Of a DNA stretch of 64,000 nt, positions 3,711 through 18,754 are shown piece after piece (position 1 is the first letter of the stretch; the number at the start of each line of letters is the position of its first letter). The DNA is from Candidatus Falkowbacteria bacterium RIFOXYC2_FULL_36_12 (GTDB lineage: Bacteria; Patescibacteriota; Patescibacteriia; UBA11705), in the NCBI GenBank assembly GCA_001778235.1, contig MFGJ01000001.1, forward strand, positions 5,152 through 69,151, read 5' to 3'. A program made the position numbers and the translations under genes. A model generated the notes under the pieces. That model was not told the DNA's origin. It did not search any database and saw only the letters and a program-made list of their open reading frames with translations.

Positions 3711-5402
3711 ATGAATAATGGTGGAGCTCCAAAACTGAAAATTATCGGACTTGGAGGACTAGAGGAAGTTGGTAGGAATATGACCCTACTTGAATATGAT
3801 AAAGATATCATAATCATAGATATGGGATTAATGTTTCCGGATGAAGATATGCCGGGGATTGATTATATTATTCCTGATATATCTTATTTAAAAGGCAAAG
3901 AGAAAAACATCAAAGGAGTTATTATTACTCATGGTCACTATGACCACATTGGTGCGATCTCTCATTTAATTCCTGAACTAGGATTTCCAACCCTATACAT
4001 GACTCCGCTTACTGCCGGATTGGTCAAAAAACGGCACGAGGAATATAAATTGCGAGAGCTAGATATAACAATTGTTGATCCAGAAGTTGACAAGATAAAA
4101 CTTGGTAATTTTCTGATTGAATTTTTCAGAGTTAACCACAATATCCCAGATTCATTCGGCGTAGTTGTTCGGACTCCACTTGGAACTGTTGTTCACACTG
4201 GAGATTTTAAAATCGACTTTGCACCGATTCATGATAAACCAGCTGATTTAAACCGTTTTGCTGAAATTGGTAAAAATGGTGTTACTGCCCTACTGATAGA
4301 CAGTACTAATGCTGGTAACCCAGGGAACCAAATTTCAGAACATGTTGTAGAAAATGAACTGGAAAAGATTTTCCAAGAATCTGACGGTATGATTTTGGCT
4401 GGAACTTTTGCTTCACTATTAAATCGTGTTCAACAATTAATTTCTCTAGCCGAAAAATACGGTCGAAAGGTTTACCTCGATGGACGAAGCATGATATCAA
4501 ATGCGGAAATTGCTCATCAACTGGGATATTTGAAATTCAAACCAACAACTTTGATTGAAGGTGGAGAAATTGATAAATACCCAAGAAACAAGTTGCTAGT
4601 AATAGGGACTGGAGCTCAAGGAGAAAAAAATGCTGTTTTGATGAGAATTGCCAACAAAGATCATAAACACATTGAAATAGAACAAGGAGATTGTGTAATT
4701 TTCTCATCTTCAGTTATTCCTGGAAATGAAAGAACAATTCAAAGCCTAAAAGATACTTTTGCGAGATTGGGAGCGAGAATCTACCACTATAAAATGATGG
4801 ATGTCCACGCAGGAGGACATGCGCAACAAGAAGATTTGAAATTGACTATGCGCCTTTTCAAACCAAAATATATTATGCCGATTGAAGCAAATTATTTCCT
4901 AAGAGTTACCAATGGAGAAGTGGCTGAACAAATTGGTTTTGCTAAAGAAAATATTTTACTCCCTGACAATGGCCAAGTAACTGAATTCAAAAGACAGGGA
5001 CGCGAAGTAATTGCCGAAGTAACAAAAGAAAAAGTGCCGACAGAATATATTATGGTTGATGGTCTTGGTGTTGGAGATGTAAGTAATATTGTGATACGAG
5101 ACCGCCAAGTGCTGGCTGATGATGGGATGTTTGTCGTTATCGCCACTCTTGATGCAAAATCAGGCGAATTGGTTGGTAGTCCAGATATTATTTCCCGTGG
5201 ATTTGTTTATATGAAAGAAAGTAAGAAACTGATTGAAGAAGCTCGAGCTAGGGTGAGAAAAATTTGTAAAGAAAAAGGTAATAATAAGAAATTTACAGGC
5301 ACTGATGAAATCAGGAATAAAATCCGAGATGATGTAGGTAAATTCTTGTTTTTCAAAACTAAGAGAAGACCAATGGTTTTACCGGTGGTGATTGAAGTGT
5401 AA
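3711..5402 (+). CDS. rnj: Ribonuclease J (metallo-beta-lactamase / beta-CASP).
   Basis: KLKIIGLGGLEEVGRNM start, the HGHYDHIG zinc motif, and beta-CASP and C-terminal domains. The track starts the ORF at 3579 with a 44-aa Arg/Ser/Thr-rich extension. The ATG at 3711 (MNNGGAPKLKII) fits the canonical RNase J N-terminus. Confidence 0.85.
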   Translation: MNNGGAPKLKIIGLGGLEEVGRNMTLLEYDKDIIIIDMGLMFPDEDMPGIDYIIPDISYLKGKEKNIKGVIITHGHYDHIGAISHLIPELGFPTLYMTPLTAGLVKKRHEEYKLRELDITIVDPEVDKIKLGNFLIEFFRVNHNIPDSFGVVVRTPLGTVVHTGDFKIDFAPIHDKPADLNRFAEIGKNGVTALLIDSTNAGNPGNQISEHVVENELEKIFQESDGMILAGTFASLLNRVQQLISLAEKYGRKVYLDGRSMISNAEIAHQLGYLKFKPTTLIEGGEIDKYPRNKLLVIGTGAQGEKNAVLMRIANKDHKHIEIEQGDCVIFSSSVIPGNERTIQSLKDTFARLGARIYHYKMMDVHAGGHAQQEDLKLTMRLFKPKYIMPIEANYFLRVTNGEVAEQIGFAKENILLPDNGQVTEFKRQGREVIAEVTKEKVPTEYIMVDGLGVGDVSNIVIRDRQVLADDGMFVVIATLDAKSGELVGSPDIISRGFVYMKESKKLIEEARARVRKICKEKGNNKKFTGTDEIRNKIRDDVGKFLFFKTKRRPMVLPVVIEV

Positions 5403-5419
5403 ACATTACGAATACTAGA

Positions 5420-5450
5420 AAAAAACACGCCCAGAAAGGTGTGTTTTTTA
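5420..5450 (+). terminator. Rho-independent terminator after rnj.
   Basis: ACACGCCCAGAAAGGTGTGT hairpin followed by a T-run. Confidence 0.6.
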
Positions 5451-5454
5451 TTAT

Positions 5455-5895
5455 AAACATAAACTACCAGTGATAGCTAGTGTGGGCGTTTAAAGGCGAA
5501 GCCGTTGAAAGTAGTAGGCATCAGTTTAATCTAAATGTAAGTTGTTGTTTTGCTAAAGTGAGTTATTTTGAGATTGAGTGATTGATTTCGCTTTGCGAGC
5601 TACTTTTGACACCCTGCCTACCGGCAGGCAGGCAAAAGTAGCCAAAAGTGCTGGGGGGATTCAATGCGAATTGAAATGATTATCTCTCGTGCATTGATTA
5701 CGCGCAGAATCCCCCCAGACCTGCCTTCATCAAGATTATGGCAGGCAAGCCCCGATGCTTGGCATGTTCGTGGGGATGAATAATAAAGTAATTGCTTAAT
5801 ACGGTGGAAAATGAATTGCAGGTGATTAAATTATATAAAGATGGAGGCCTTTGCCCGAAAGATAGAAACTACCAGTTGCTATGCTGGTGGTTTTT
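5455..5895. repeat. Dispersed hairpin-rich repeat element, copy 1.
   Basis: It shares long blocks with 18040..18660: TTGAAAGTAGT-GG...TAATTTAAATGTAAGT-GTT--TGTT-GCTAAAG, GTGATTGAT, a CCTGCCTACCGGCAGGCAGG palindrome, GGGGGGATTC...GAATCCCCCC inverted repeats, and CATGTTCGTGGGG. It is flanked by imperfect direct repeats of AAACTACCAGT at 5461 and 5867. Confidence 0.7.
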
Positions 5896-5963: not shown

Positions 5964-6562
5964 GTTCCAAATGAGTAGTTCTGTCGCCCCCCCACTAAAA
6001 TTTATGTTTTATGTTTACCTTTTACAAAGCTTAAAGGATAAAAAACTTTATATTGGTTATACAAATGATTTAAGAAGAAGATTTGCTGAACATAATAAAG
6101 GTGAATCTAAGTCAACAAGAAATAGAAGACCTTTTAGATTGGTTTACTATGAAGCCTTTTTATCTCAAATTGATGCAAAAAACAGGGAACGGAAATTAAA
6201 ACTATTCAAAAATACTTACAACCACTTGAAAAAACGGATAGTAAATAGTCTTTTAGAACATAAATTTTAGTGGGGGGGAGGAAAGTCCGAACACTCACAC
6301 TTTGGTGTAGAATGGTAGCGGGTAATTCCCGTCGATTGGCTAGATTTATCATGTCAATCAGAGGTGCGAGCAGTGACGTCAAATTGAGAAATTAATTTGA
6401 ATCCCTTTGGGGATAATCTCTTTCGAAAGATAGAGAGTGAAACGGCTAAATCCTTACTTGAGTGCAAGAGCAAATTAGGTAGCTCGCTTGAACCTACAAG
6501 CAATTGTAGGGCTAGATAGATGACAGTTAAAACAGAATTCGGCTTACTCACTTGTTTGGAAC
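5964..6562 (+). ncRNA. rnpB: RNase P RNA (bacterial type A) with a ~290-nt expansion of helix P3 that contains an ORF.
   Basis: P4 5' strand GGAGGAAAGTCCGAACAC at 6279-6296. GCAAGAGCAAATTAGG matches the GCAAGGCCAAAUAGG region. GGGCTAGATAGATGACAG...ACAGAATTCGGCTTAC matches GGCCUAGAUGAAUGAC...ACAGAACCCGGCUUA. P1 pairs GGTTCCAAATGAG with CTCACTTGTTTGGAACC. A terminator follows at 6570-6596 (GTGACGGCGTCAC plus a T-run). Confidence 0.85.
6004..6270 (+). CDS. GIY-YIG nuclease family protein (UPF0213 / YhbQ-like, 88 aa) lying inside the RNase P RNA P3 helix.
   Basis: MFYVYLLQSLKDKKLYIGYTNDLRRRFAEHNKGESKSTRNRRPFRLVYYEAFL... matches the small GIY-YIG (YhbQ/COG2827) pattern. The ORF sits exactly in the loop of a perfect 20-bp stem (5987-6006 pairs with 6259-6278), so its ATG pairs with the CAT just upstream of its stop. 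The track start at 5971 would read through the rnpB P1/P2 strands, so 6004 is preferred. Confidence 0.75.
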   Translation: MFYVYLLQSLKDKKLYIGYTNDLRRRFAEHNKGESKSTRNRRPFRLVYYEAFLSQIDAKNRERKLKLFKNTYNHLKKRIVNSLLEHKF

Positions 6563-6654: not shown

Positions 6655-8079
6655 ATGAAGAAAAAATCCGAGTTAGTTTTCACAGCAATAAAGATTCCAC
6701 TAGATTATGCTTTACTGGTTTTATCTGGAGTATTAGCCTACTTGATTCGAATAAACGAAAATATTACCCAGTACAGACAAGTGGAATTTAATATTGATTT
6801 AAATGAAATTTTCACCACTTCCCTACTCCTGTCTGTTGTATGGCTATTATTTTTTGCTATGGCTGGTTTGTATAAATTTCGGCGATTGAAAATCACTGAT
6901 GAATTGGGAAAAATTATTCTTGCCTGTTCAACTGGTATGAGCGCGATTATTATTTATATGTTCTTTGTCCGTGAATTATTTGATTCAAGATTTATTGTGC
7001 TTACTGCCTGGGTTTTGAGTATATTTCTGATAATAGTTGCCAGAATTATTTTGAGGAAAATACAAAATATTAGTCTGAAGTTTGGGGTGGGAAGTCACAA
7101 AATAATAATTGTTGGCAACAATGAGGCGACCAAAGAGTTGATAAAAACTTTTAAGCAACAACCAGAATTAGGTTATAAAATAATTGCTGAATGTAAAAAA
7201 TTTGATAATGAAAAATTTATTGATTTGCACAAAAAATATTTCATTGATGAAATAATTCAAACTGATTCATCGTTATCAAGAGCTGAATCAATAGAGCTAA
7301 TAAACTTTTCAGAAAATAATAACATTATTTTCAAATATGCGGCAGGTACATTTGAAGCAAGGACGACAAATATTGATGTTCATATGATTGCCGGGATTCC
7401 CCTAATCGAAATCCGTAAAACTAAGCTTGATGGCTGGGGGAAAATTGCCAAGAGATTAATTGATTTTATTTATTCAATAATTTTAATTGTTGTATTATCC
7501 CCTGTGATGCTAATAATTTTGCTGGCAATAAAAATCGAATCCAGAGGACCAGCAATTTTCCGAAATGAACGAGTATCTCGGCATGGTAAATTTCATGTCT
7601 TCAAATTCAGATCAATGTATGCTGATTATTGCATTGGCAAACAGTTTGAAAAATTTACTGACCAAAAAAAGATTATTGAATTTGAAAAAGATTTAATAAA
7701 AAAACAATCTGAAAGAAAAGGACCAGTTTATAAAATTTTAAATGACCCAAGGAGGACAAAGGTCGGCAGATTTATTGAGAGAACTTCACTCGATGAATTG
7801 CCACAATTATTCAATGTCCTGATTGGCAATATGAGTTTAGTGGGGCCAAGACCGCATCAACCAAGAGAAGTAGAAAAGTATGAAATGCACCACAAGAGAG
7901 TACTTGATATTAAACCGGGAATTACTGGACTGGCACAAATTTCTGGGCGGAGTGATCTTGATTTCGAAGATGAAGTTAAATTGGATACATATTACATTGA
8001 AAACTGGTCACTAAAATTGGATTTCTGGATAATGTTAAAAACTCCACTGGTAGTTTTGTCCAGGAAATCAAAAGTATAA
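6655..8079 (+). CDS. Polyprenyl-phosphate hexose-1-phosphate transferase (WbaP / bacterial sugar transferase family); the initiating glycosyltransferase.
   Basis: Several N-terminal TM helices, then a C-terminal bacterial sugar transferase domain (GPRPHQPREVEKYEMHHKRVLDIKPGITGLAQISGRSDLDFEDEVKLDTYYIENWSLKLDFWIMLKT). The track start at 6520 lies inside rnpB, so the ATG at 6655 (MKKKSELVFTAIKIPLDY) is preferred. Confidence 0.8.
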   Translation: MKKKSELVFTAIKIPLDYALLVLSGVLAYLIRINENITQYRQVEFNIDLNEIFTTSLLLSVVWLLFFAMAGLYKFRRLKITDELGKIILACSTGMSAIIIYMFFVRELFDSRFIVLTAWVLSIFLIIVARIILRKIQNISLKFGVGSHKIIIVGNNEATKELIKTFKQQPELGYKIIAECKKFDNEKFIDLHKKYFIDEIIQTDSSLSRAESIELINFSENNNIIFKYAAGTFEARTTNIDVHMIAGIPLIEIRKTKLDGWGKIAKRLIDFIYSIILIVVLSPVMLIILLAIKIESRGPAIFRNERVSRHGKFHVFKFRSMYADYCIGKQFEKFTDQKKIIEFEKDLIKKQSERKGPVYKILNDPRRTKVGRFIERTSLDELPQLFNVLIGNMSLVGPRPHQPREVEKYEMHHKRVLDIKPGITGLAQISGRSDLDFEDEVKLDTYYIENWSLKLDFWIMLKTPLVVLSRKSKV

Positions 8080-10385: not shown

Positions 10386-10806
10386 GTTTCCACGAATTAC
10401 GAATATGCTAAGTTTCCACGAATAACGAATCTGCCACCTGCCTACGCTGACTTCAGCTTCGGCAGGCAGGCGAATCTACAAATTGAGGTGAATGATGAAT
10501 GGTTTCCACGAATAACGAATTTGCCACGAATCTACAAATTGAGGTGAATGATGAGTAGTTTCCACAAATAACAAATCTGCCACGAATCTACAAATTGAGG
10601 TGAATGATGAATAGTTTCCACGAATTGCGAATCTGCCACGAATCTACAAATTGAGGTGAATGATGAGTAGTTTCCACAAATAACAAATCTGCCACGAATC
10701 TACAAATTGAGATGAATGATGAATGGTTTCCACGAATAACGAATCTGCCACCTGCCTACGCTGACTTCAGCTTCGGCAGGCAGGCGAATCTACAAATTGA
10801 GTTGTG
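10386..10806. repeat. Tandem array of six ~56-bp direct repeats (plus one truncated unit). The first and last full units each carry a 33-bp palindrome insertion.
   Basis: The unit GTTTCCACGAATAACGAATCTGCCACGAATCTACAAATTGAGGTGAATGATGAAT(A/G) starts at 10412, 10502, 10558, 10614, 10670 and 10726. Units 1 and 6 contain CTGCCTACGCTGACTTCAGCTTCGGCAGGCAGG. There are no unique spacers, so this is not CRISPR. Confidence 0.85.
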
Positions 10807-14060: not shown

Positions 14061-14195
14061 GATTACCTAAATTAAGAGATATTAATATCTCTTTTTATTT
14101 TTATATTACTGAAATTATGTTAATGGCAAGTGTATTAAATTTTTCTCTAATTTACAATAAATTCTGTTAAAATAACTAAGTTTTATTAGCTGTTA

Positions 14196-14224
14196 TTGAC
14201 AAACCTATTGATTTTTGCTATAAT
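14196..14224 (+). promoter_or_regulatory. Consensus promoter of the tRNA operon.
   Basis: TTGACA (14196-14201), 17-bp spacer, TATAAT (14219-14224), about 45 nt upstream of tRNA-Lys. Confidence 0.7.
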
Positions 14225-14269
14225 ATATTGTTATTTGTTCATTAGAAGGTTGACCGCCTTAAGGTCAAT

Positions 14270-14342
14270 GGGCCGCTAGCTCAGTTGGTAGAGCAGCAGA
14301 CTTTTAATCTGTTGGTCATCGGTTCGATTCCGATGCGGCTCA
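14270..14342 (+). tRNA. tRNA-Lys (anticodon TTT).
   Basis: Acceptor GGGCCGC/GCGGCTC, D-arm GCTCAGTTGGTAGAGC, anticodon loop CTTTTAA, T-arm ATCGGTTCGATTCCGAT. Confidence 0.85.
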
Positions 14343-14378
14343 CCCCATTTCTTCAAGAAGCCAAAAACAGGCTTCAAG

Positions 14379-14453
14379 GCTGGCATAGCTCAATGGTAGA
14401 GCAGCTGATTTGTAATCAGCCGGTTGAGGGTTCGATTCCCTTTGCCAGCTCCA
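14379..14453 (+). tRNA. tRNA-Thr (anticodon TGT), with an encoded CCA.
   Basis: Acceptor GCTGGCA/TGCCAGC, anticodon stem GCTGA/TCAGC with loop TTTGTAA, T-arm GAGGGTTCGATTCCCTT, 3' CCA present. Confidence 0.85.
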
Positions 14454-14467
14454 TTCTTTCGTCCATT

Positions 14468-14541
<74 letters not shown>

Positions 14542-14545
14542 CACT

Positions 14546-14662
14546 GGAGGAGTGGCCGAATGGTTGAAGGCGGCGGTCTTGAAAACCGCAGGTACGCAAG
14601 TACCCAGGGGTTCTCCGCCAAAGGACGGACTAGTCCTACGGCTAGGATTCCCTCCTCCTCCG
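14546..14662 (+). tRNA. tRNA-Ser (anticodon TGA)-like gene with an apparent ~32-nt insertion in the T-arm; possibly an intron-like element or a pseudogene.
   Basis: The 5' half is canonical class II: acceptor GGAGGAG, D-arm TGGCCGAATGGTTGAAGGC, anticodon stem GCGGT/ACCGC with loop CTTGAAA, and variable arm GGTACGCAAGTACC. The acceptor 3' strand CTCCTCC lies at 14655-14661. GGGGTTC and GATTCCCTC are separated by TCCGCCAAAGGACGGACTAGTCCTACGGCTAG, making the gene 117 nt rather than about 90. Confidence 0.5.
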
Positions 14663-14737
14663 CTCGTTTGAAGGAATTTCTAAGGGAGTAAATAAACTCC
14701 CCGGGAGATAACAGCCTAAAACTGGATCTCCCGAAAT

Positions 14738-14808
14738 TGGGGCGTCGTCAAGCGGTAAGACACAGGGCTTTGGTCCCTGCATCCTAGGTTCGAATCCTAG
14801 CGCCCCAG
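14738..14808 (+). tRNA. tRNA-Gln (anticodon TTG).
   Basis: U1-A72 acceptor TGGGGCG/CGCCCCA as in E. coli tRNA-Gln. Anticodon stem CAGGG/CCCTG with loop CTTTGGT. T-arm CTAGGTTCGAATCCTAG. Confidence 0.8.
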
Positions 14809-14837
14809 CATAAATGCTAGTCACAGCAGTGACTAGA

Positions 14838-14878
14838 GCCGTGAAAACTCAACAGAGTTAGTAACGGCTTTTTTTTAA
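14838..14878 (+). terminator. Rho-independent terminator of the tRNA operon.
   Basis: GCCGTGAAAACTCAACAGAGTTAGTAACGGC followed by T8. Confidence 0.6.
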
Positions 14879-14961
14879 TTTTATTGGTTAGAATATTGAC
14901 AAAATTGTATTTTTTAGTATAATAAACATAGATTGTCCGAGTCGAGCAAACGGAGAAAAAC

Positions 14962-15144
14962 ATGGGAAAAGCAAAAAAAAATTTTAGTCTGATTCAACAC
15001 AGAACTGATGAACAAATAAAAAAACTACAAGAAGAAGTGAAACAAGCTCGGCAGGAAGCCAAGGATCAGGATGCAGATATTCTAACTCTTGAAGAACTTG
15101 AAAGAAAATTGCTTCTGAACGATAAAGAAACTGAAAAAAAGTAA
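14962..15144 (+). CDS. Small, highly charged hypothetical protein (60 aa).
   Basis: Preceded by a consensus TTGACA (14896-14901) / TATAAT promoter and a GAGTCGAGCAAACGGAGAAAAAC leader. KKNF..QEEVKQARQEAKDQ helical. Confidence 0.4.
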   Translation: MGKAKKNFSLIQHRTDEQIKKLQEEVKQARQEAKDQDADILTLEELERKLLLNDKETEKK

Positions 15145-15197
15145 CATTGCTAAATCGCAGTGTTTTTTGTTTTATTTATGGGGAAATGATATACTCT
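15145..15197. repeat. 53-bp exact duplicate, copy A. Copy B is at 16121..16173.
   Basis: CATTGCTAAATCGCAGTGTTTTTTGTTTTATTTATGGGGAAATGATATACTCT occurs identically after gene 14962..15144 and after gene 15718..16119. Confidence 0.9.
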
Positions 15198-15311
15198 CTA
15201 TGGTTTTTCTTGACAAAAGTATAGAAGTTTGTTATTCTATACTATTGGACTTTGAAACAGTTTGGAAATTAATGAATTCAGCCCCCCCCCTCACACCACC
15301 AGGAGAAAACC

Positions 15312-15674
15312 ATGCATAACATCTCACATTTGATTTACACATCTGACCTGTGTCAATTCATTTATGGACTGGGTCTTGTATTGGGGGTTTGTTTCATTAT
15401 TTCCAGCTTTATTTCCTCTCTTATTCTTGATGTATCCTTCAGATTTGACATTGTTCATCGTGATTCTGGCAAAAACTTTATTATGGCGATGACCTGTGCT
15501 GGTGCCTTCTTCATTTCAATTTTTGGACTCAATTCCCTGCCAATTGAAAGAAATATGTATTGGGACATTGGAGCTCTGGTTGGATTGTGTTCTGGAATTC
15601 TAGTAATAGTCATTGTCTATCTGGCTGTTAGTATGTTTATTCATTCAAAGACTACGACTCATTCAAGAATCTAA
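15312..15674 (+). CDS. Small integral membrane protein (4 TM); paralogue of the next gene.
   Basis: NSLPIERNMYWDIGALVGL resembles NSLLATELNVFWDIGSLIGG in 15718..16119. AGGAG RBS. A C9 homopolymer (15282-15290) sits just upstream. Confidence 0.55.
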   Translation: MHNISHLIYTSDLCQFIYGLGLVLGVCFIISSFISSLILDVSFRFDIVHRDSGKNFIMAMTCAGAFFISIFGLNSLPIERNMYWDIGALVGLCSGILVIVIVYLAVSMFIHSKTTTHSRI

Positions 15675-15717
15675 ATATTGACCTAGTTCCACGAAACAAG
15701 GATGGAGGAGAATAAAC

Positions 15718-16119
15718 ATGCCACCAACATCATTCTACGAAAAATTGGCGTACGGAACTCATAATTTGATGCTTGCTGATAGCATTCCGACATCCGATCT
15801 TTATCAATTAATTTATGGGATGATGCTGTTTCTTTCTTTTGGTTTTTTTGTTGCAGGGATAATGGCAAATGTGATGCTGGATACTAACCGTTGGTGTTAC
15901 AATAATATGGGAGAAATTGTTGGAATGAGTTCATGTGGCATTGGTTCTACTCTCTTTGCAGTATTTGGACTGAATAGCCTGCTGGCTACAGAGCTCAATG
16001 TATTTTGGGATATCGGTTCTTTAATTGGAGGGTTTTTAGGTATTGCTCTCATTGTTATCACTTACATTACGACGAAATTATACTTTTGTTCAAAAACAAT
16101 CAGACAGACAAGAAACTAA
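15718..16119 (+). CDS. Small integral membrane protein (4 TM); paralogue of 15312..15674.
   Basis: Strong RBS GGATGGAGGAG. Similar TM architecture and conserved segments. Confidence 0.55.
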   Translation: MPPTSFYEKLAYGTHNLMLADSIPTSDLYQLIYGMMLFLSFGFFVAGIMANVMLDTNRWCYNNMGEIVGMSSCGIGSTLFAVFGLNSLLATELNVFWDIGSLIGGFLGIALIVITYITTKLYFCSKTIRQTRN

Positions 16120-16120
16120 A

Positions 16121-16173
16121 CATTGCTAAATCGCAGTGTTTTTTGTTTTATTTATGGGGAAATGATATACTCT
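16121..16173. repeat. 53-bp exact duplicate, copy B.
   Basis: Identical to 15145..15197. Confidence 0.9.
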
Positions 16174-16198
16174 AACTATATTAATTTAATGCAAATTT

Positions 16199-18007
16199 AT
16201 GACTAAATTTGAACAATTTTATCGTGAAGCACTTCGAGATTTAAAAAAATTAATTCAGAGATTTCCTCTTGCAATGCTGGCAGCGGTAGCAAGTGTTGTT
16301 CTCGGGATTATTGGTATTGAGATTGAACAATCGGGCAAAGAGGTGCCACTTGGTTTGATGTACACCCTCATGTCTTTGGTTTTGACTTTCCCGATGTTTG
16401 TCTTGGCTGAACTTATTTCAGAGAGTCTTAACTGGGATGTGACAAAAAAATATCTATTAAAATTGGTGCCAATCTTAATTGGTGTGGTGTACTTTTTCTC
16501 GCTGATGCTACCCTACCAGGAAATATCAGAAAGGCAAGGAATTGAGTTTTTCTTACTAAATGTTATTTTTTATTTCTTGATTTTGGTTGCACCCTTTATA
16601 AACAATAATTTCCGTTCTAAATTATGGAACTTTAGTAAACAAATTATTATAAGATTATTTTTTTCAGTTCTCTTCACTGGAGTAATTTTTGCAGGTGTTT
16701 CTCTGGCTATCACTGCAGTGCAATATTTATTTGAACTGAAAATTGACAATGAGATATTTATAGAAATCTGGATTTCTGCAGTTGGATTATTTGGGATAAA
16801 TTTTCTTTTGGCTGGTGTGCCAACGCTAAAAGAAATGAATGATGAAATTGACTATCCGAAATTATTGAAAGTGTGTGTTCAGTATATTTTATTACCATTA
16901 CTGGCAGTTTATGGAATAATTTTGTATGTTTATACTCTAAGAATTATTTTCACATCTGCTTGGCCGAAGGAAGGTGTTGTCCAGTGGGTCATGGTTTATG
17001 GAATTGGAGGATTTGTAACTTTTGCCCTAGCAAAACCTTTAACAATGCATGTTAAATTATTAAAAAAAATATTTACTGGTTTTTTTATTTCAGTTTTACC
17101 ACTGCTCATAGTCTATTTTTCAGCTATTGGTATTCGAATTTCTGAATATGGAGTGACAGTTGACCGTTACCTTGTTGTATTGTTTGGACTTTGGTTAATC
17201 CCTGTTACATTTTATTATTTATTAAGTAGGAAAAAACACCTACACTGGTTAATTGGCTCTGTTGTAATCTGTGTTTTGATCTTCCTGTATGGTCCATGGA
17301 ATGGGTATAATATTTCTTTTAACAGCCAGGTACAAAGATTGGAAAACTTATTAATAAAAAACAATCTTCTGATTGATGGGAAACTACAGAAAGCTCCTGA
17401 CAATTTTTCTATCTCTGAATATACTGAAATTGAATCGATCTCTCGATATTTATATCGAAGTTATGAGGTAGAAAAGATTAACAAATGGCTTGGCGAAGAA
17501 AATGTTGAACTTATTAATAAAAATATTCTACAAAAAAATGGTAAAACATATTATGCACATTCAAGGGCTTTTCTTCAGGCAATTAATTTAATAAAAATAG
17601 ATAGTGTTATTGATAAACCTGCGATACTGTTTAGCTATCAACCTGAATCCGATGTCTTCCCAGTTGCAACATATGATTATGTCTATTCATTTCAAGGTTT
17701 AAGTGATGATGCAGTAAGGTTTCCTGAAAAGTTTTACAGAGATACGATCTCAACATCATTAACAACAAATGAATTGCTTATAATGAAAAATTCGAACATC
17801 TTAATTGAGATAAACCTAACGGATATAGCTTATAAATTGATTAAAAAATCTACCCCTTACAATATCCCGATTGATGATATGATTATCTACGCGAGCAATG
17901 AAAAGATTGAGATCAAACTGCTTCTAAGTAATTTACAATTTAGCCTTGATAATGAACGACCTCTAATTAAAACCGTGAGTGGATTGGTTGCTTTCTCACT
18001 GAAATAA
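16199..18007 (+). CDS. Large polytopic membrane protein (about 10-12 TM) with a C-terminal soluble domain; function unknown, possibly envelope or glycan related.
   Basis: 602 aa with long hydrophobic helices through residue ~370, then a hydrophilic C-terminal domain. It sits within the glycosylation locus. Confidence 0.45.
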   Translation: MTKFEQFYREALRDLKKLIQRFPLAMLAAVASVVLGIIGIEIEQSGKEVPLGLMYTLMSLVLTFPMFVLAELISESLNWDVTKKYLLKLVPILIGVVYFFSLMLPYQEISERQGIEFFLLNVIFYFLILVAPFINNNFRSKLWNFSKQIIIRLFFSVLFTGVIFAGVSLAITAVQYLFELKIDNEIFIEIWISAVGLFGINFLLAGVPTLKEMNDEIDYPKLLKVCVQYILLPLLAVYGIILYVYTLRIIFTSAWPKEGVVQWVMVYGIGGFVTFALAKPLTMHVKLLKKIFTGFFISVLPLLIVYFSAIGIRISEYGVTVDRYLVVLFGLWLIPVTFYYLLSRKKHLHWLIGSVVICVLIFLYGPWNGYNISFNSQVQRLENLLIKNNLLIDGKLQKAPDNFSISEYTEIESISRYLYRSYEVEKINKWLGEENVELINKNILQKNGKTYYAHSRAFLQAINLIKIDSVIDKPAILFSYQPESDVFPVATYDYVYSFQGLSDDAVRFPEKFYRDTISTSLTTNELLIMKNSNILIEINLTDIAYKLIKKSTPYNIPIDDMIIYASNEKIEIKLLLSNLQFSLDNERPLIKTVSGLVAFSLK

Positions 18008-18039
18008 TACTTAAAAGCTTACCAGTTATTGGTGAGCTT

Positions 18040-18660
18040 TTTTATTATTTGGACATAAATCATCAGCGACAGCTGGTGTGTGTGCTTAAAAGCGCAGCAA
18101 TTGAAAGTAGTGGTTAGCGGTGTAATTTAAATGTAAGTGGTTGATGTTGCTAAAGCAAGTTTTTTTTAGAATAAGTGATTGATAAAGCTTCGCTTGACAC
18201 TTTTTGATGGCAAAAAGTGTCCAAAAACCATTGGGGGCTTTAATTGCTACTTTTGAACACTATTTTGTGTTTTGAACACGGCAAGAAAGCCCCCAAACCC
18301 GAGGTTTACCATGTTCGTGGGGTTTAAAGTTAGTGATTGGTTTTGCTAAAGCAGGTTTTTTGAAAAAAGTGATTGATTGCCTGCCTACCCTGCCTACCGG
18401 CAGGCAGGCGGCAGGCAGGCAAAAAGGACGAACCGCCTACACTAAAGTTTCGGCGGTCAAGAAAGTTTTGGGGGTTTTAAAACAAATGCTTTTGAACATC
18501 TTCGTGTGGTTCATGACCGCGATAAACCCCCCAAACACCGAGGCTATTCATCTTAGGTGTTTTGAAATTAAATAAATGATTTTTTTGATTGATATTGCTA
18601 AAGCAAGCTTTTTTTGACCTGTGAGATAGAAACTACCTCCGTGAGCTGATGGTTTTTTAT
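18040..18660. repeat. Dispersed hairpin-rich repeat element, copy 2, containing two internal modules.
   Basis: Two modules each have GCTAAAGCA-GTTTTTT, GTGATTGAT, a hairpin, a GGGGG...CCCCC long stem, then ACCGAGG. Hairpins: GACACTTTTTGATGGCAAAAAGTGTC, then CCTGCCTACCCTGCCTACCGGCAGGCAGGCGGCAGGCAGG. Stems: GGGGGCTTT...AAAGCCCCC and GGGGGTTT...AAACCCCCC. ACCATGTTCGTGGGG and the flanking GATAGAAACTACC motif match copy 1. Track ORF 18333..18575 inside it is probably spurious. Confidence 0.7.
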
Positions 18661-18754
18661 TTGGAAAAATGTTTTATTTTTGCTAAAATACAAGTATTAA
18701 TATAATAATCTTATTGATTCCGTAACAAGTACGGAATAGACAGACAGAGAGTGT

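What the first reader, a model, noticed from the sequence alone, without database searches (positions are those of the whole stretch)
14546..14662. tRNA-Ser(TGA) gene with an apparent ~32-nt insertion splitting the T-arm.
The acceptor, D-arm, anticodon arm (loop CTTGAAA) and class-II variable hairpin (GGTACGCAAGTACC) are canonical. The acceptor 3' strand CTCCTCC is present 117 nt from the start. The T-arm halves GGGGTTC and GATTCCCTC are separated by TCCGCCAAAGGACGGACTAGTCCTACGGCTAG, which includes the 10-nt palindrome GGACTAGTCC. The spacer to the next tRNA is also unusually long at 75 nt and contains the hairpin CGGGAGAT...ATCTCCCG. This could be a tRNA intron at a non-canonical position, a disrupted pseudogene (notable since this would be the TGA isoacceptor), or an atypical fold.
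Basis: seen in the sequence. Interest (0 to 1): 0.55.

Follow-up and report, generated by a model that had tools for sequence, protein, structure and literature searches.

The report
Mobile hairpin element inside tRNA-Ser T-loop
A serine tRNA gene of a groundwater Falkowbacteria (CPR) bacterium carries a clean 32-base hairpin-forming insertion in its T loop; related small palindromic inserts sit in other tRNA genes of sister species, and whether the interrupted tRNA still works is unresolved.

Summary
Window 14546-14662 is the tRNA-Ser(UGA) gene of a Candidatus Falkowbacteria tRNA operon (Lys-Thr-Pro-Ser-Gln). It is interrupted exactly between T-loop nucleotides 56 and 57 by 32 bp (14614-14645). 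Two sister species carry an uninterrupted Ser(UGA) gene at the same operon position. Deleting the 32 bp in silico restores a canonical tRNA-Ser. The identical insert is present in 9 contigs from at least 8 assemblies.

The insert is neither a group I intron nor an archaeal-type bulge-helix-bulge (BHB) intron. It is a GC-rich quasi-palindrome, homologous (23/32; 0 of 20000 shuffles) to a 32-bp insert in a tRNA-Tyr-like gene of a sister species. A second related subtype interrupts tRNA-Pro (D loop) and tRNA-Arg (anticodon), and also occurs intergenically in this window with filled and empty sites.

My best reading is that a small DNA-level mobile palindrome landed in the gene. Unprocessed, the transcript cannot form a T loop. 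UCA is the commonest Ser codon, so either another Ser(UGA) copy exists (disabled gene, about 45-50%) or the hairpin is removed or tolerated (about 40%). The second case would be a new kind of bacterial tRNA processing. Scanning the complete MAGs for a second copy and reading metatranscriptomes would decide it.

The parts
14196..14224 (+). Sigma-70-type promoter of the tRNA operon (TTGACA-17-TATAAT with TG)
   Evidence: 12/12 consensus match, about 45 nt upstream of tRNA-Lys
14269..14542 (+). tRNA-Lys(UUU), tRNA-Thr(UGU) and tRNA-Pro(UGG), the upstream genes of the same operon
   Evidence: ARAGORN; Rfam 67-74 bits
14546..14613 (+). tRNA-Ser(UGA) 5' part: acceptor 5' strand, D arm, anticodon arm, long variable arm, T-stem 5' strand and T-loop U54 U55 C56
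   Evidence: Rfam alignment; alignment to orthologs; in-silico spliced cloverleaf
14614..14645 (+). 32-bp GC-rich quasi-palindromic insert (TCCGCCAAAGGACGGACTAGTCCTACGGCTAG) between T-loop positions 56 and 57
   Evidence: Clean gap against orthologs. Hairpin -12.6 kcal/mol, z -3.3. 23/32 identical to the insert in the L039 tRNA-Tyr-like gene, 0/20000 shuffles.
14646..14662 (+). tRNA-Ser(UGA) 3' part: G57 A58 U59 U60, T-stem 3' strand CCCTC, acceptor 3' strand CTCCTCC, discriminator G. No encoded CCA.
14663..14737 (+). 75-nt Ser-Gln spacer with two hairpins (GGGAG..CTCCC; CGGGAGAT..ATCTCCCG at 14702-14733)
   Evidence: Spacers of the orthologous operons are also hairpin-rich but not conserved in sequence.
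14738..14809 (+). tRNA-Gln(UUG), the last gene of the operon, followed by terminator-like hairpins and a T run
5720..5749 (-). Intergenic copy of the CTTG-CCTGCC..GGCAGG element (CTTGCCTGCCATAATCTTGATGAAGGCAGG), the type that interrupts tRNA-Arg in sister species L037
   Evidence: 24/30 identical to the L037 tRNA-Arg insert. The paralogous repeat near 18290 lacks it (read).
5613..5633 (+). Basic 20-nt hairpin element CCTGCCTACCGGCAGGCAGG(C)
   Evidence: The same 20-mer is in L037 and in 12 IMG/VR contigs.
10437..10471 (+). The same hairpin shell with a 14-nt centre, inserted in the first unit of a 56-nt tandem array
   Evidence: The four internal units lack it.
10751..10785 (+). Identical hairpin element in the last unit of the 56-nt tandem array
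18380..18457 (+). Nested CCTGCC hairpin (one copy inside the loop of another), followed by a CCGCC..GGCGG hairpin

Best explanation
SHOWN. This is the orthologous, operon-embedded tRNA-Ser(UGA) gene of a Candidatus Falkowbacteria (CPR/Patescibacteria) species. A 32-bp GC-rich quasi-palindromic element sits in it exactly between T-loop nucleotides 56 and 57, with no target-site duplication. The element has a homolog in another tRNA-like gene of a sister species. A related subtype interrupts two further tRNA genes and also occurs in intergenic DNA of this genome, with filled and empty sites.

INFERRED. The insert arrived by a DNA-level insertion of a small mobile palindrome of the REP/MITE or 'GC-cluster' kind. 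It is not an RNA intron with a dedicated splice signal.

INFERRED. The operon transcript will carry an irregular hairpin of about 16 bp in place of the T-psi-C loop. It therefore cannot form the D-loop/T-loop elbow, and as transcribed it is most likely not a working tRNA.

MY COMMITMENT. The gene is a recently disabled copy, and UCA decoding is supplied by another tRNA-Ser(UGA) gene elsewhere in the genome. I am about 0.8 confident in the mobile-palindrome origin and about 0.45-0.5 confident in the 'disabled copy' outcome.
For: Origin as an insertion:
- Clean 32-nt insertion relative to the intact syntenic Ser(UGA) genes in L037 and L039.
- Removing it restores a canonical tRNA-Ser.
- The insert is 23/32 identical, with the same length and hairpin architecture, to the 32-bp insert at L039 7174-7205. 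That insert lies in a tRNA-Tyr-like gene (0/20000 shuffles).
- A second subtype (CTTG-CCYGCC..GGCRG) interrupts tRNA-Pro in the D loop (L039 6502-6532) and tRNA-Arg(UCU) between anticodon bases 35 and 36 (L037 5020-5049). Each is a clean insertion and is seen in two assemblies.
- That subtype also has an intergenic copy in this window (5720-5749, 24/30).
- CCTGCC-type hairpins show filled and empty sites in a tandem array, plus a nested copy.

No shared splice geometry:
- Junction positions relative to the hairpin stem differ among the Ser, Arg and Pro inserts.
- The quasi-palindromes align about equally well in either orientation, which argues against a common RNA splice signal.

For a disabled copy:
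- The element-bearing Tyr-like gene in L039 is clearly degenerate (22.3 bits, below gathering score; 3 of 7 acceptor pairs broken). Backup copies and tRNA pseudogenes therefore do exist in these operons.
- Operon content differs between species: 5, 8 and 9 genes.
- Relative to both orthologs, this Ser gene has an A49.C65 mismatch and has lost the encoded CCA.
- In the unrelated L026 and L031, T-loop-interrupted Ser copies lie next to normal copies.
Against: - UCA is the most used Ser codon (279 of 777 Ser codons, 20 per 1000, in 25 core genes). A functional tRNA-Ser(UGA) is therefore indispensable.
- No second copy lies in the 64-kb window.
- To my knowledge CPR genomes are small and usually carry few redundant tRNA genes.
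- Apart from the insert, the gene is fully canonical: G18 G19, U8, all stems and the class-II arm.
- It sits at the orthologous operon position behind a perfect promoter.
- The insert is fixed in every assembly seen.
- In the sister operons, 3 of 17 tRNA genes carry such an element, and two of those are otherwise intact and for essential isoacceptors. That is many pseudogenes for streamlined genomes.
- The subtype found in the Ser gene was seen only inside tRNA genes in 147 kb of Falkowbacteria DNA.
- No transposase was found in the window.
Confidence: 0.47

Rival explanations
1. Bacterial mini-intron or intervening sequence. The hairpin is removed from the pre-tRNA, so the gene remains the working and only tRNA-Ser(UGA). 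Removal could be precise cleavage plus ligation by an unknown endonuclease and ligase. Or it could be excision without ligation, as in rRNA intervening sequences, leaving two base-paired pieces.
For: - The isoacceptor is essential.
- The gene is orthologous and otherwise perfect, behind a strong promoter.
- The insert is fixed in all assemblies.
- Sister species carry similar inserts in otherwise intact tRNA-Arg(UCU) and tRNA-Pro(UGG). The Arg insert splits the anticodon and could only be compatible with function if it is removed.
- The pre-tRNA keeps its cloverleaf, with the insert as a coaxial extension of the T arm or the anticodon arm. This resembles an rRNA intervening sequence.
- Size, positions and movement between tRNA genes mirror the mobile non-canonical introns of Thermoproteales (cited in the paper read).
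Against: - There is no BHB motif at any of the three junction pairs and no group I core.
- Per the review read, bacterial tRNA introns known so far are group I only.
- Junction geometry differs between the inserts.
- The same element types occur in intergenic DNA and in a dead tRNA-like gene.
- RNase III-type excision cannot restore an anticodon loop.
- No candidate enzyme was found in the window.
Confidence: 0.3
2. Tolerated expansion. The 32 nt stay in the mature tRNA as an extra helix projecting from the elbow, and the tRNA still works. This organism's processing enzymes, EF-Tu and ribosome would have to accommodate it.
For: - The rest of the molecule is intact, including the SerRS identity elements in the long variable arm and acceptor.
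- The fold is stable (-53.8 kcal/mol, z -3.6).
- The D-loop insert in L039 tRNA-Pro lies at the variable-pocket position 19/20, which is naturally length-variable.
Against: - Position 56/57 lies inside the T-loop motif. C56 pairs with G19 and R57 stacks between G18 and G19 (established tRNA structure).
- In the predicted fold, U55, C56, G57 and A58 are consumed by pairing, so no T loop forms.
- The related Arg insert splits the anticodon and cannot be tolerated, so this reading cannot explain the family.
Confidence: 0.1
3. Scar of site-specific recombination. An integrase-type event at the T loop duplicated or displaced the tRNA 3' end, and the 'insert' is leftover att or element DNA. It begins with TCCGCCA, which resembles the tRNA 3' terminus TCC-G-CCA.
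For: - TTCTCCGCCAA at the 5' junction matches the 3' ends of Ser genes in relatives.
- The relatives encode CCA and this gene does not.
- Many hits of the genome scan are such 3'-end duplications (L008, L013, L017, L023, L028, L029).
Against: - TCCGCC is also the terminus of the homologous insert in L039 (reverse complement TCCGCCAGAGGACGGA...), which lies in an anticodon stem. It also begins the reverse complement of the Pro insert. It is therefore an element motif and not tRNA-derived.
- The insert contains no repeat of positions 57-73.
- No integrase or island is nearby.
Confidence: 0.04
4. Assembly or sequencing artefact.
For: Two contigs (L002, L004) break inside the neighbouring tRNA-Pro.
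Against: The sequence is identical in 9 contigs from at least 8 independent assemblies, made with different assemblers and in different projects.
Confidence: 0.01

Closest known systems
Mobile non-canonical (BHB) tRNA introns of Thermoproteales and other archaea
   Same: [quoted passage not shown] Homologous inserts occur in different tRNA genes, implying transposition. In-silico removal restores a canonical tRNA.
   Different: No bulge-helix-bulge motif at the junctions. The host is bacterial. One subtype also lies in intergenic DNA. No splicing endonuclease is known or was seen.
REP/BIME elements and other miniature palindromic repeats (Rickettsia palindromic elements, yeast mitochondrial GC clusters)
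   Same: Imperfect GC-rich palindromes of 20-35 bp in an AT-rich genome. No target duplication. Filled and empty sites exist. Short unpaired tails flank the stem. From my own knowledge, GC clusters and Rickettsia elements are known to land inside genes.
   Different: Low copy number in the DNA available. The Ser-type element was seen only in tRNA genes. No RAYT or other transposase was found. Insertion into tRNA loops has not, to my knowledge, been described.
Intervening sequences of bacterial 16S/23S rRNA (excised by RNase III without ligation), including the rRNA insertions reported for CPR bacteria
   Same: An extended helix replaces the loop that caps a conserved stem. The host RNA is otherwise intact. 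The lineage is already known for insertions in its RNA genes (paper read).
   Different: The host is a tRNA, where a nick in the T loop or anticodon loop has no precedent for function in vivo. Excision is untested.
Group I self-splicing introns in bacterial tRNA genes
   Same: They interrupt bacterial tRNA genes and must be removed for function.
   Different: Group I introns need a catalytic core of roughly 100 nt or more and sit in the anticodon loop (review). Here there are 32 nt, in the T loop, with no Rfam group I match.

Membership tests
Protein-spliced BHB tRNA intron (archaeal/eukaryal type) | Bulge-helix-bulge (3-nt bulge, 4-bp helix, 3-nt bulge) positioned at both exon-intron junctions | tested here: not met
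   Scripted check of the Ser, Arg and Pro junctions: central helix 2-3 of 4 pairs, flanking helices mostly 1 of 4. The MFE folds show symmetric internal loops and not opposed bulges.
Protein-spliced BHB tRNA intron (archaeal/eukaryal type) | Splicing endonuclease (EndA) and RNA ligase encoded by the host | not testable with these tools
   Only 64 kb of the genome is available. Pfam scans of 39 of the window's ORFs show neither.
Protein-spliced BHB tRNA intron (archaeal/eukaryal type) | Precise removal restores a canonical tRNA | tested here: met
   In-silico deletion gives an ARAGORN tRNA-Ser(tga) of 86 nt.
Group I intron in tRNA | Conserved catalytic core (P3-P9, about 100 nt or more) | tested here: not met
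   The insert is 32 nt. There is no Intron_gpI or any other Rfam family at 14200-14960, even at E up to 10.
Group I intron in tRNA | Located in the anticodon loop, with U before the 5' splice site | tested here: not met
   The insert lies in the T loop after C56.
REP/MITE-like miniature palindromic mobile element | Short (20-40 bp) imperfect GC-rich palindrome with defined ends | tested here: met
   32 bp, hairpin z -3.3. Both 32-bp homologs start with TCCGCC directly at the junction.
REP/MITE-like miniature palindromic mobile element | Filled and empty sites, that is, a precise presence/absence polymorphism | tested here: met
   Ser, Arg and Pro genes compared with intact orthologs. Tandem-array units with and without the hairpin.
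REP/MITE-like miniature palindromic mobile element | Many dispersed copies in the same genome | tested here: inconclusive
   The Ser-type element has 1 copy in 64 kb and 2 copies in 147 kb of Falkowbacteria DNA, both in tRNA or tRNA-like genes. Related CCTGCC/CCGCC hairpins lie at 5 loci in the window, one of them a nested pair.
REP/MITE-like miniature palindromic mobile element | Cognate transposase (for example RAYT/Y1) in the genome | not testable with these tools
   None in the window.
rRNA-type intervening sequence (RNase III-excised) | Extended helix replacing the loop of a conserved hairpin | tested here: met
   The MFE fold keeps the cloverleaf and extends the T stem by 3+3+5 bp with two 2x2 internal loops.
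rRNA-type intervening sequence (RNase III-excised) | Absent from the mature RNA, with fragments left unligated | not testable with these tools
   No RNA data are available.
tRNA pseudogene | Loss of an essential structural element | tested here: met
   The T loop is destroyed as encoded. ARAGORN fails and the Rfam score drops to 38 bits, against 57-60 bits for the orthologs.
tRNA pseudogene | Further degenerative changes elsewhere in the gene | tested here: not met
   All other stems and conserved bases are intact. There is only an A49.C65 mismatch and no encoded CCA. Contrast the L039 Tyr-like gene.
tRNA pseudogene | A functional paralog elsewhere in the genome | not testable with these tools
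   None in the 64-kb window. This species is absent from the genome and metagenome collections that could be scanned.

The most novel reading that the evidence does not exclude
Falkowbacteria (CPR) carry a previously undescribed class of bacterial tRNA intervening sequences. These are mobile hairpin elements of about 30 nt that sit in the D, anticodon and T loops of single-copy, essential tRNA genes (Ser-UGA here; Arg-UCU and Pro-UGG in sister species). They would be removed from the pre-tRNA by a mechanism that is neither group I self-splicing nor BHB/EndA splicing.
Probability: 0.28. Interest if true: 0.9.

Novelty: new variant of a known kind. Interest (0 to 1): 0.6.

Why it matters
According to the review read, bacterial tRNA genes are interrupted only by group I introns. 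Here, three related CPR species each carry a different tRNA gene interrupted by a hairpin element of about 30 bp. Each gene is otherwise intact and serves an essential isoacceptor. The elements recur between genes and species.

If these genes are dead, the result documents small palindromic elements eroding the tRNA operon of a streamlined genome, which would imply unexpected tRNA redundancy in CPR bacteria. If they are alive, bacteria possess an unknown way of excising or tolerating inserts in tRNA loops. That would parallel the mobile introns of Thermoproteales and the rRNA insertions already known in CPR.

There is also a practical point. ARAGORN silently drops this gene, so MAG annotations of this lineage will report a missing tRNA-Ser(UGA).

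Tried and rejected
1. Canonical T arm hidden in the sequence. None exists: ARAGORN finds no gene and Infernal needs a 37-nt insertion.
2. BHB intron. Rejected by explicit junction checks.
3. Group I or any Rfam family in or around the insert. None, even at E up to 10.
4. Duplicated tRNA 3' end or att scar, suggested by TCCGCCA at the insert start. Rejected because the same terminus occurs on the homologous elements elsewhere.
5. Assembly artefact. Rejected.
6. Insert repeated in the window. There is only one copy at up to 3 mismatches.
7. Genome contigs and metagenome contigs pattern scans for Ser(UGA) genes with T-loop inserts.
   - Neither collection held this species.
   - Most hits were normal genes plus chance or duplicated 3' ends.
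   - Only L019, L026, L031 and L050 were real T-loop inserts, and these have unrelated sequences.
8. Seven further homolog loci of the upstream 245-aa gene were fetched to find more orthologous operons. They lack the tRNA operon at this position.
9. A viral-contig scan for T loops carrying the CCTGCCTG hairpin. It found only a terminator-like hairpin.
10. TIGR-Tas arrays surfaced in a literature search. They are unrelated.
11. Literature searches for short non-group-I tRNA inserts in CPR bacteria, and for the element sequences. Nothing found.
12. A common target sequence. 'TC' precedes several inserts (Ser GTTC, Arg CTTC, Tyr-like AGTC in element orientation), but the Pro insert does not fit and the T-loop cases were selected with a GGTTC pattern. 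I make no claim.

Full report
**What is there**

Window 14546-14662 (+) reads as a class-II tRNA-Ser with anticodon UGA.
- Acceptor GGAGGAG/CTCCTCC, a 3-bp D stem and anticodon arm GCGGT-CTTGAAA-ACCGC.
- Variable hairpin GGTAC-GCAA-GTACC and discriminator G.
- The T arm is split. AGGGG-TTC is followed by 32 nt (14614-14645, TCCGCCAAAGGACGGACTAGTCCTACGGCTAG) and only then by GATT-CCCTC.

ARAGORN reports the four neighbouring tRNAs (Lys, Thr, Pro, Gln) but not this one. The Rfam tRNA model matches 14546-14662 end to end at 38.0 bits (gathering score 29), with a 37-nt unaligned T-loop stretch and an A49.C65 mismatch. No other Rfam family matches the region, even at E up to 10.

The gene lies in a compact operon. 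The promoter is perfect, TTGACA-17-TATAAT at 14196-14224. The spacers are 33, 14, 3 and 75 nt.

**It is real and fixed**

The 245-aa ORF just upstream and the 60-aa ORF just downstream were used to recover contigs. Nine contigs cover the gene. They include NCBI GCA_001778155.1 and GCA_001778075.1, three JGI metagenomes and several ENA assemblies. All carry the insert with 100% identity.

NCBI names the organism Candidatus Falkowbacteria bacterium RIFOXYD2_FULL_35_9 / RIFOXYC2_FULL_36_12. The window is core chromosome, with rpoB/C, gyrA, infB, leuS, ftsH and RNase J, and is 35% GC.

**It is an insertion, not an odd ancestral fold**

Homologs of the upstream ORF led to two sister species that have a tRNA operon at the same place.
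- L037/L038 (GCA_003518055.1): Arg-Lys-Thr-Pro-Ser-Val-Tyr-Glu-Gln.
- L039/L040 (GCA_002773615.1): Arg-Lys-Thr-Pro-Ser-Val-(Tyr-like)-Met-Gln.

Their Ser(UGA) genes are uninterrupted. The three-way alignment shows a single 32-column gap between C56 and R57. Deleting the 32 nt yields an 86-nt tRNA-Ser(tga) that ARAGORN accepts. Other relatives lack the operon at this locus.

**What the insert is**

On its own it folds into an imperfect hairpin (-12.6 kcal/mol, z -3.3). In the pre-tRNA the cloverleaf is kept. The T stem is extended by 3+3+5 bp, and U55, C56, G57 and A58 are consumed by pairing (-53.8 kcal/mol, z -3.6).

A short-word BLAST of the insert against all fetched loci gave its best hit in L039/L040, TCTCCGCCAGAGGACGGA, 17 of 18. 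That hit lies in a 32-bp hairpin (L039 7174-7205) which itself interrupts the anticodon stem of a tRNA-Tyr(GUA)-like gene. The two 32-mers align without gaps at 23/32, and 0 of 20000 shuffles reach this.

The same operons hold two more interrupted genes.
- L039 tRNA-Pro(UGG) has 31 nt in the D loop after G19 (6502-6532).
- L037/L038 tRNA-Arg(UCU) has 30 nt between anticodon bases 35 and 36 (5020-5049).

Both are clean relative to orthologs or the consensus, and both become canonical when the insert is removed. These two inserts start with CTTG and are homologous to each other (0/5000 shuffles).

The CTTG-CCTGCC..GGCAGG type also has an intergenic copy in this window (5720-5749, minus strand, 24/30 identical to the Arg insert). 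A paralogous repeat near 18290 lacks it.

Related CCTGCC hairpins occur at three more places.
- At 5613-5633.
- Nested one inside another at 18380-18420.
- In the first and last units, but not the four middle units, of a 56-nt tandem array at 10409-10800.

So this lineage carries small GC-rich palindromes that come and go at the DNA level. Four of them sit in tRNA or tRNA-like genes.

**What it is not**

- It is not a group I intron. It is only 32 nt, has no core, and lies in the T loop and not the anticodon loop. The review lists group I as the only bacterial tRNA intron type.
- It is not a BHB intron. At the Ser, Arg and Pro junctions the would-be central helix has 2-3 of 4 pairs, and the flanking helices mostly 1 of 4.
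- It is not a duplicated 3' end. The TCCGCCA at the insert start resembles the tRNA terminus TCC-G-CCA. But TCCGCC is also the terminus of the L039 homolog, and it begins the reverse complement of the Pro insert.

**Does the gene still work?**

Evidence that it must work:
- UCA is the most frequent Ser codon (279 of 777; 20 per 1000 codons in 25 core genes), so a tRNA-Ser(UGA) is indispensable.
- There is no second copy in the 64 kb.
- The rest of the gene is flawless and sits at the orthologous operon position.
- The insert is fixed.
- In the sister operons, 3 of 17 tRNA genes carry an element, and two of these are otherwise intact and essential.

Evidence that it is dead:
- No bacterial mechanism is known for removing such inserts.
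- The junctions lie at different distances from the hairpin stems in the three intact hosts.
- The quasi-palindromes align about equally well in either orientation.
- One subtype also occurs in intergenic DNA.
- The element-bearing Tyr-like gene is plainly degenerate (22.3 bits, three broken acceptor pairs). Because tRNA-Tyr is essential, a backup copy must exist in that genome.
- Operon content is fluid between species.
- Compared with both orthologs, this gene has acquired an A.C mismatch at 49-65 and lost the encoded CCA.

A retained insert is unlikely because 56/57 lies inside the T-loop motif, and the Arg insert splits an anticodon.

My estimates are: disabled copy about 45-50%; removed (spliced or excised) about 30%; tolerated about 10%; other about 5-10%.

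**Limits**

They returned only four unrelated T-loop-interrupted Ser genes. I therefore could not obtain a diverged copy of this particular insertion for covariation analysis. I also could not scan the rest of the genome for a second Ser(UGA) gene, a transposase or candidate processing enzymes. No RNA data were available. Literature searches found no description of such inserts in CPR tRNA genes.

Noticed in passing
L037 4984-5087 (= L038, GCA_003518055.1); insert at 5020-5049: tRNA-Arg(UCU) of a sister Falkowbacteria has a clean 30-nt hairpin insert (CTTGCCTGCCGTAGTTTCAACGAAGGCAGG) between anticodon bases 35 and 36. The ortholog in L040 is intact. The pre-tRNA fold stacks a 9-bp hairpin on the anticodon stem.
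   Followed up: yes
L039 6482-6587 (insert 6502-6532) and L039 7144-7260 (insert 7174-7205); same in L040: tRNA-Pro(UGG) has a 31-nt insert in the D loop and is canonical once the insert is removed. A degenerate tRNA-Tyr(GUA)-like gene carries a 32-bp insert homologous to the window's insert. It scores 22.3 bits (below gathering score), and 3 of 7 acceptor pairs are broken.
   Followed up: yes
window 10409-10800: A tandem array of six 56-nt units (GTTTCCACGAATAACGAATCTGCCAC|GAATCTACAAATTGAGGTGAATGATGAATG) of unknown function. The first and last units carry an identical 34-35-nt CCTGCC hairpin at the same internal site.
   Followed up: partly
window 5613-5632, 18380-18419; L037 2684-2703; IMG/VR loci L075-L086: The exact 20-mer CCTGCCTACCGGCAGGCAGG, always followed by C, occurs in this genome, in a sister species and in 12 IMG/VR contigs whose GC ranges from 33% to 70%. 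It mostly lies in short spacers between genes. It looks like a cosmopolitan mini-hairpin of unknown nature. No paper in the library contains the sequence.
   Followed up: partly
L031 (Calditrichota MAG JAADJD010000044), reverse strand, about 4140-5500 of the reverse complement: Two normal tRNA-Ser genes (CGA, UGA) are followed by at least six tandem tRNA-Ser(UGA)-like copies. Each has its T loop interrupted at 56/57 by CCTGCCTG-N8-9-AGGCAGGCAGG, with conserved stems and variable loops. L026 has a similar partial copy next to a normal Ser gene.
   Followed up: partly
L019 (Bacteroidales MAG JAFGWF010000180), reverse strand, tRNA-Ser(UGA) upstream of a normal tRNA-Ser(CGA): The same 22-nt element (TTCCAWWGGAATCCCTT(T)GGGGA) is inserted in both the D loop (GGTC|..|GATT) and the T loop (GGTTC|..|GAAT) of one tRNA-Ser gene. 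Both arms become long continuous helices (-61.7 kcal/mol, z -4.3).
   Followed up: partly
L037 5774-5861: The intact tRNA-Ser(UGA) of this sister species has the anticodon loop CCTGAAA, that is C33 in place of the nearly universal U33.
   Followed up: no
window 14061-18754: The segment holding the tRNA operon, three small ORFs and a DUF4153 protein is absent in at least five related species. In those species the 245-aa gene is followed directly by the GT4 glycosyltransferase and DUF4012 genes (L035, L041, L043, L046, L061). tRNA gene content of the operon also differs between the three species that have it.
   Followed up: partly
window 5500-5800 and 18060-18560: Paralogous intergenic modules of about 300 nt share motifs (..aatgtaagtgg.., tgctaaagcaag-T-run, gtgattgat, GGGGG..CCCCC hairpins, catgttcgtgggg). 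They could be an uncharacterised repeat or a non-coding RNA family. The hairpin elements are embedded in them.
   Followed up: no
window 5971-6267: A stand-alone 99-aa GIY-YIG nuclease-domain protein (Pfam E 1e-16) lies about 220 nt from the hairpin cluster at 5613-5749. No link to the elements was established.
   Followed up: no
L008, L013, L017, L023, L028, L029 (various phyla): tRNA-Ser(UGA) genes are followed within 10-35 nt by a second copy of their own T-loop-to-3'-end segment. This is the signature of integrase att-site duplication, and it is a common false positive when searching for T-loop inserts.
   Followed up: no
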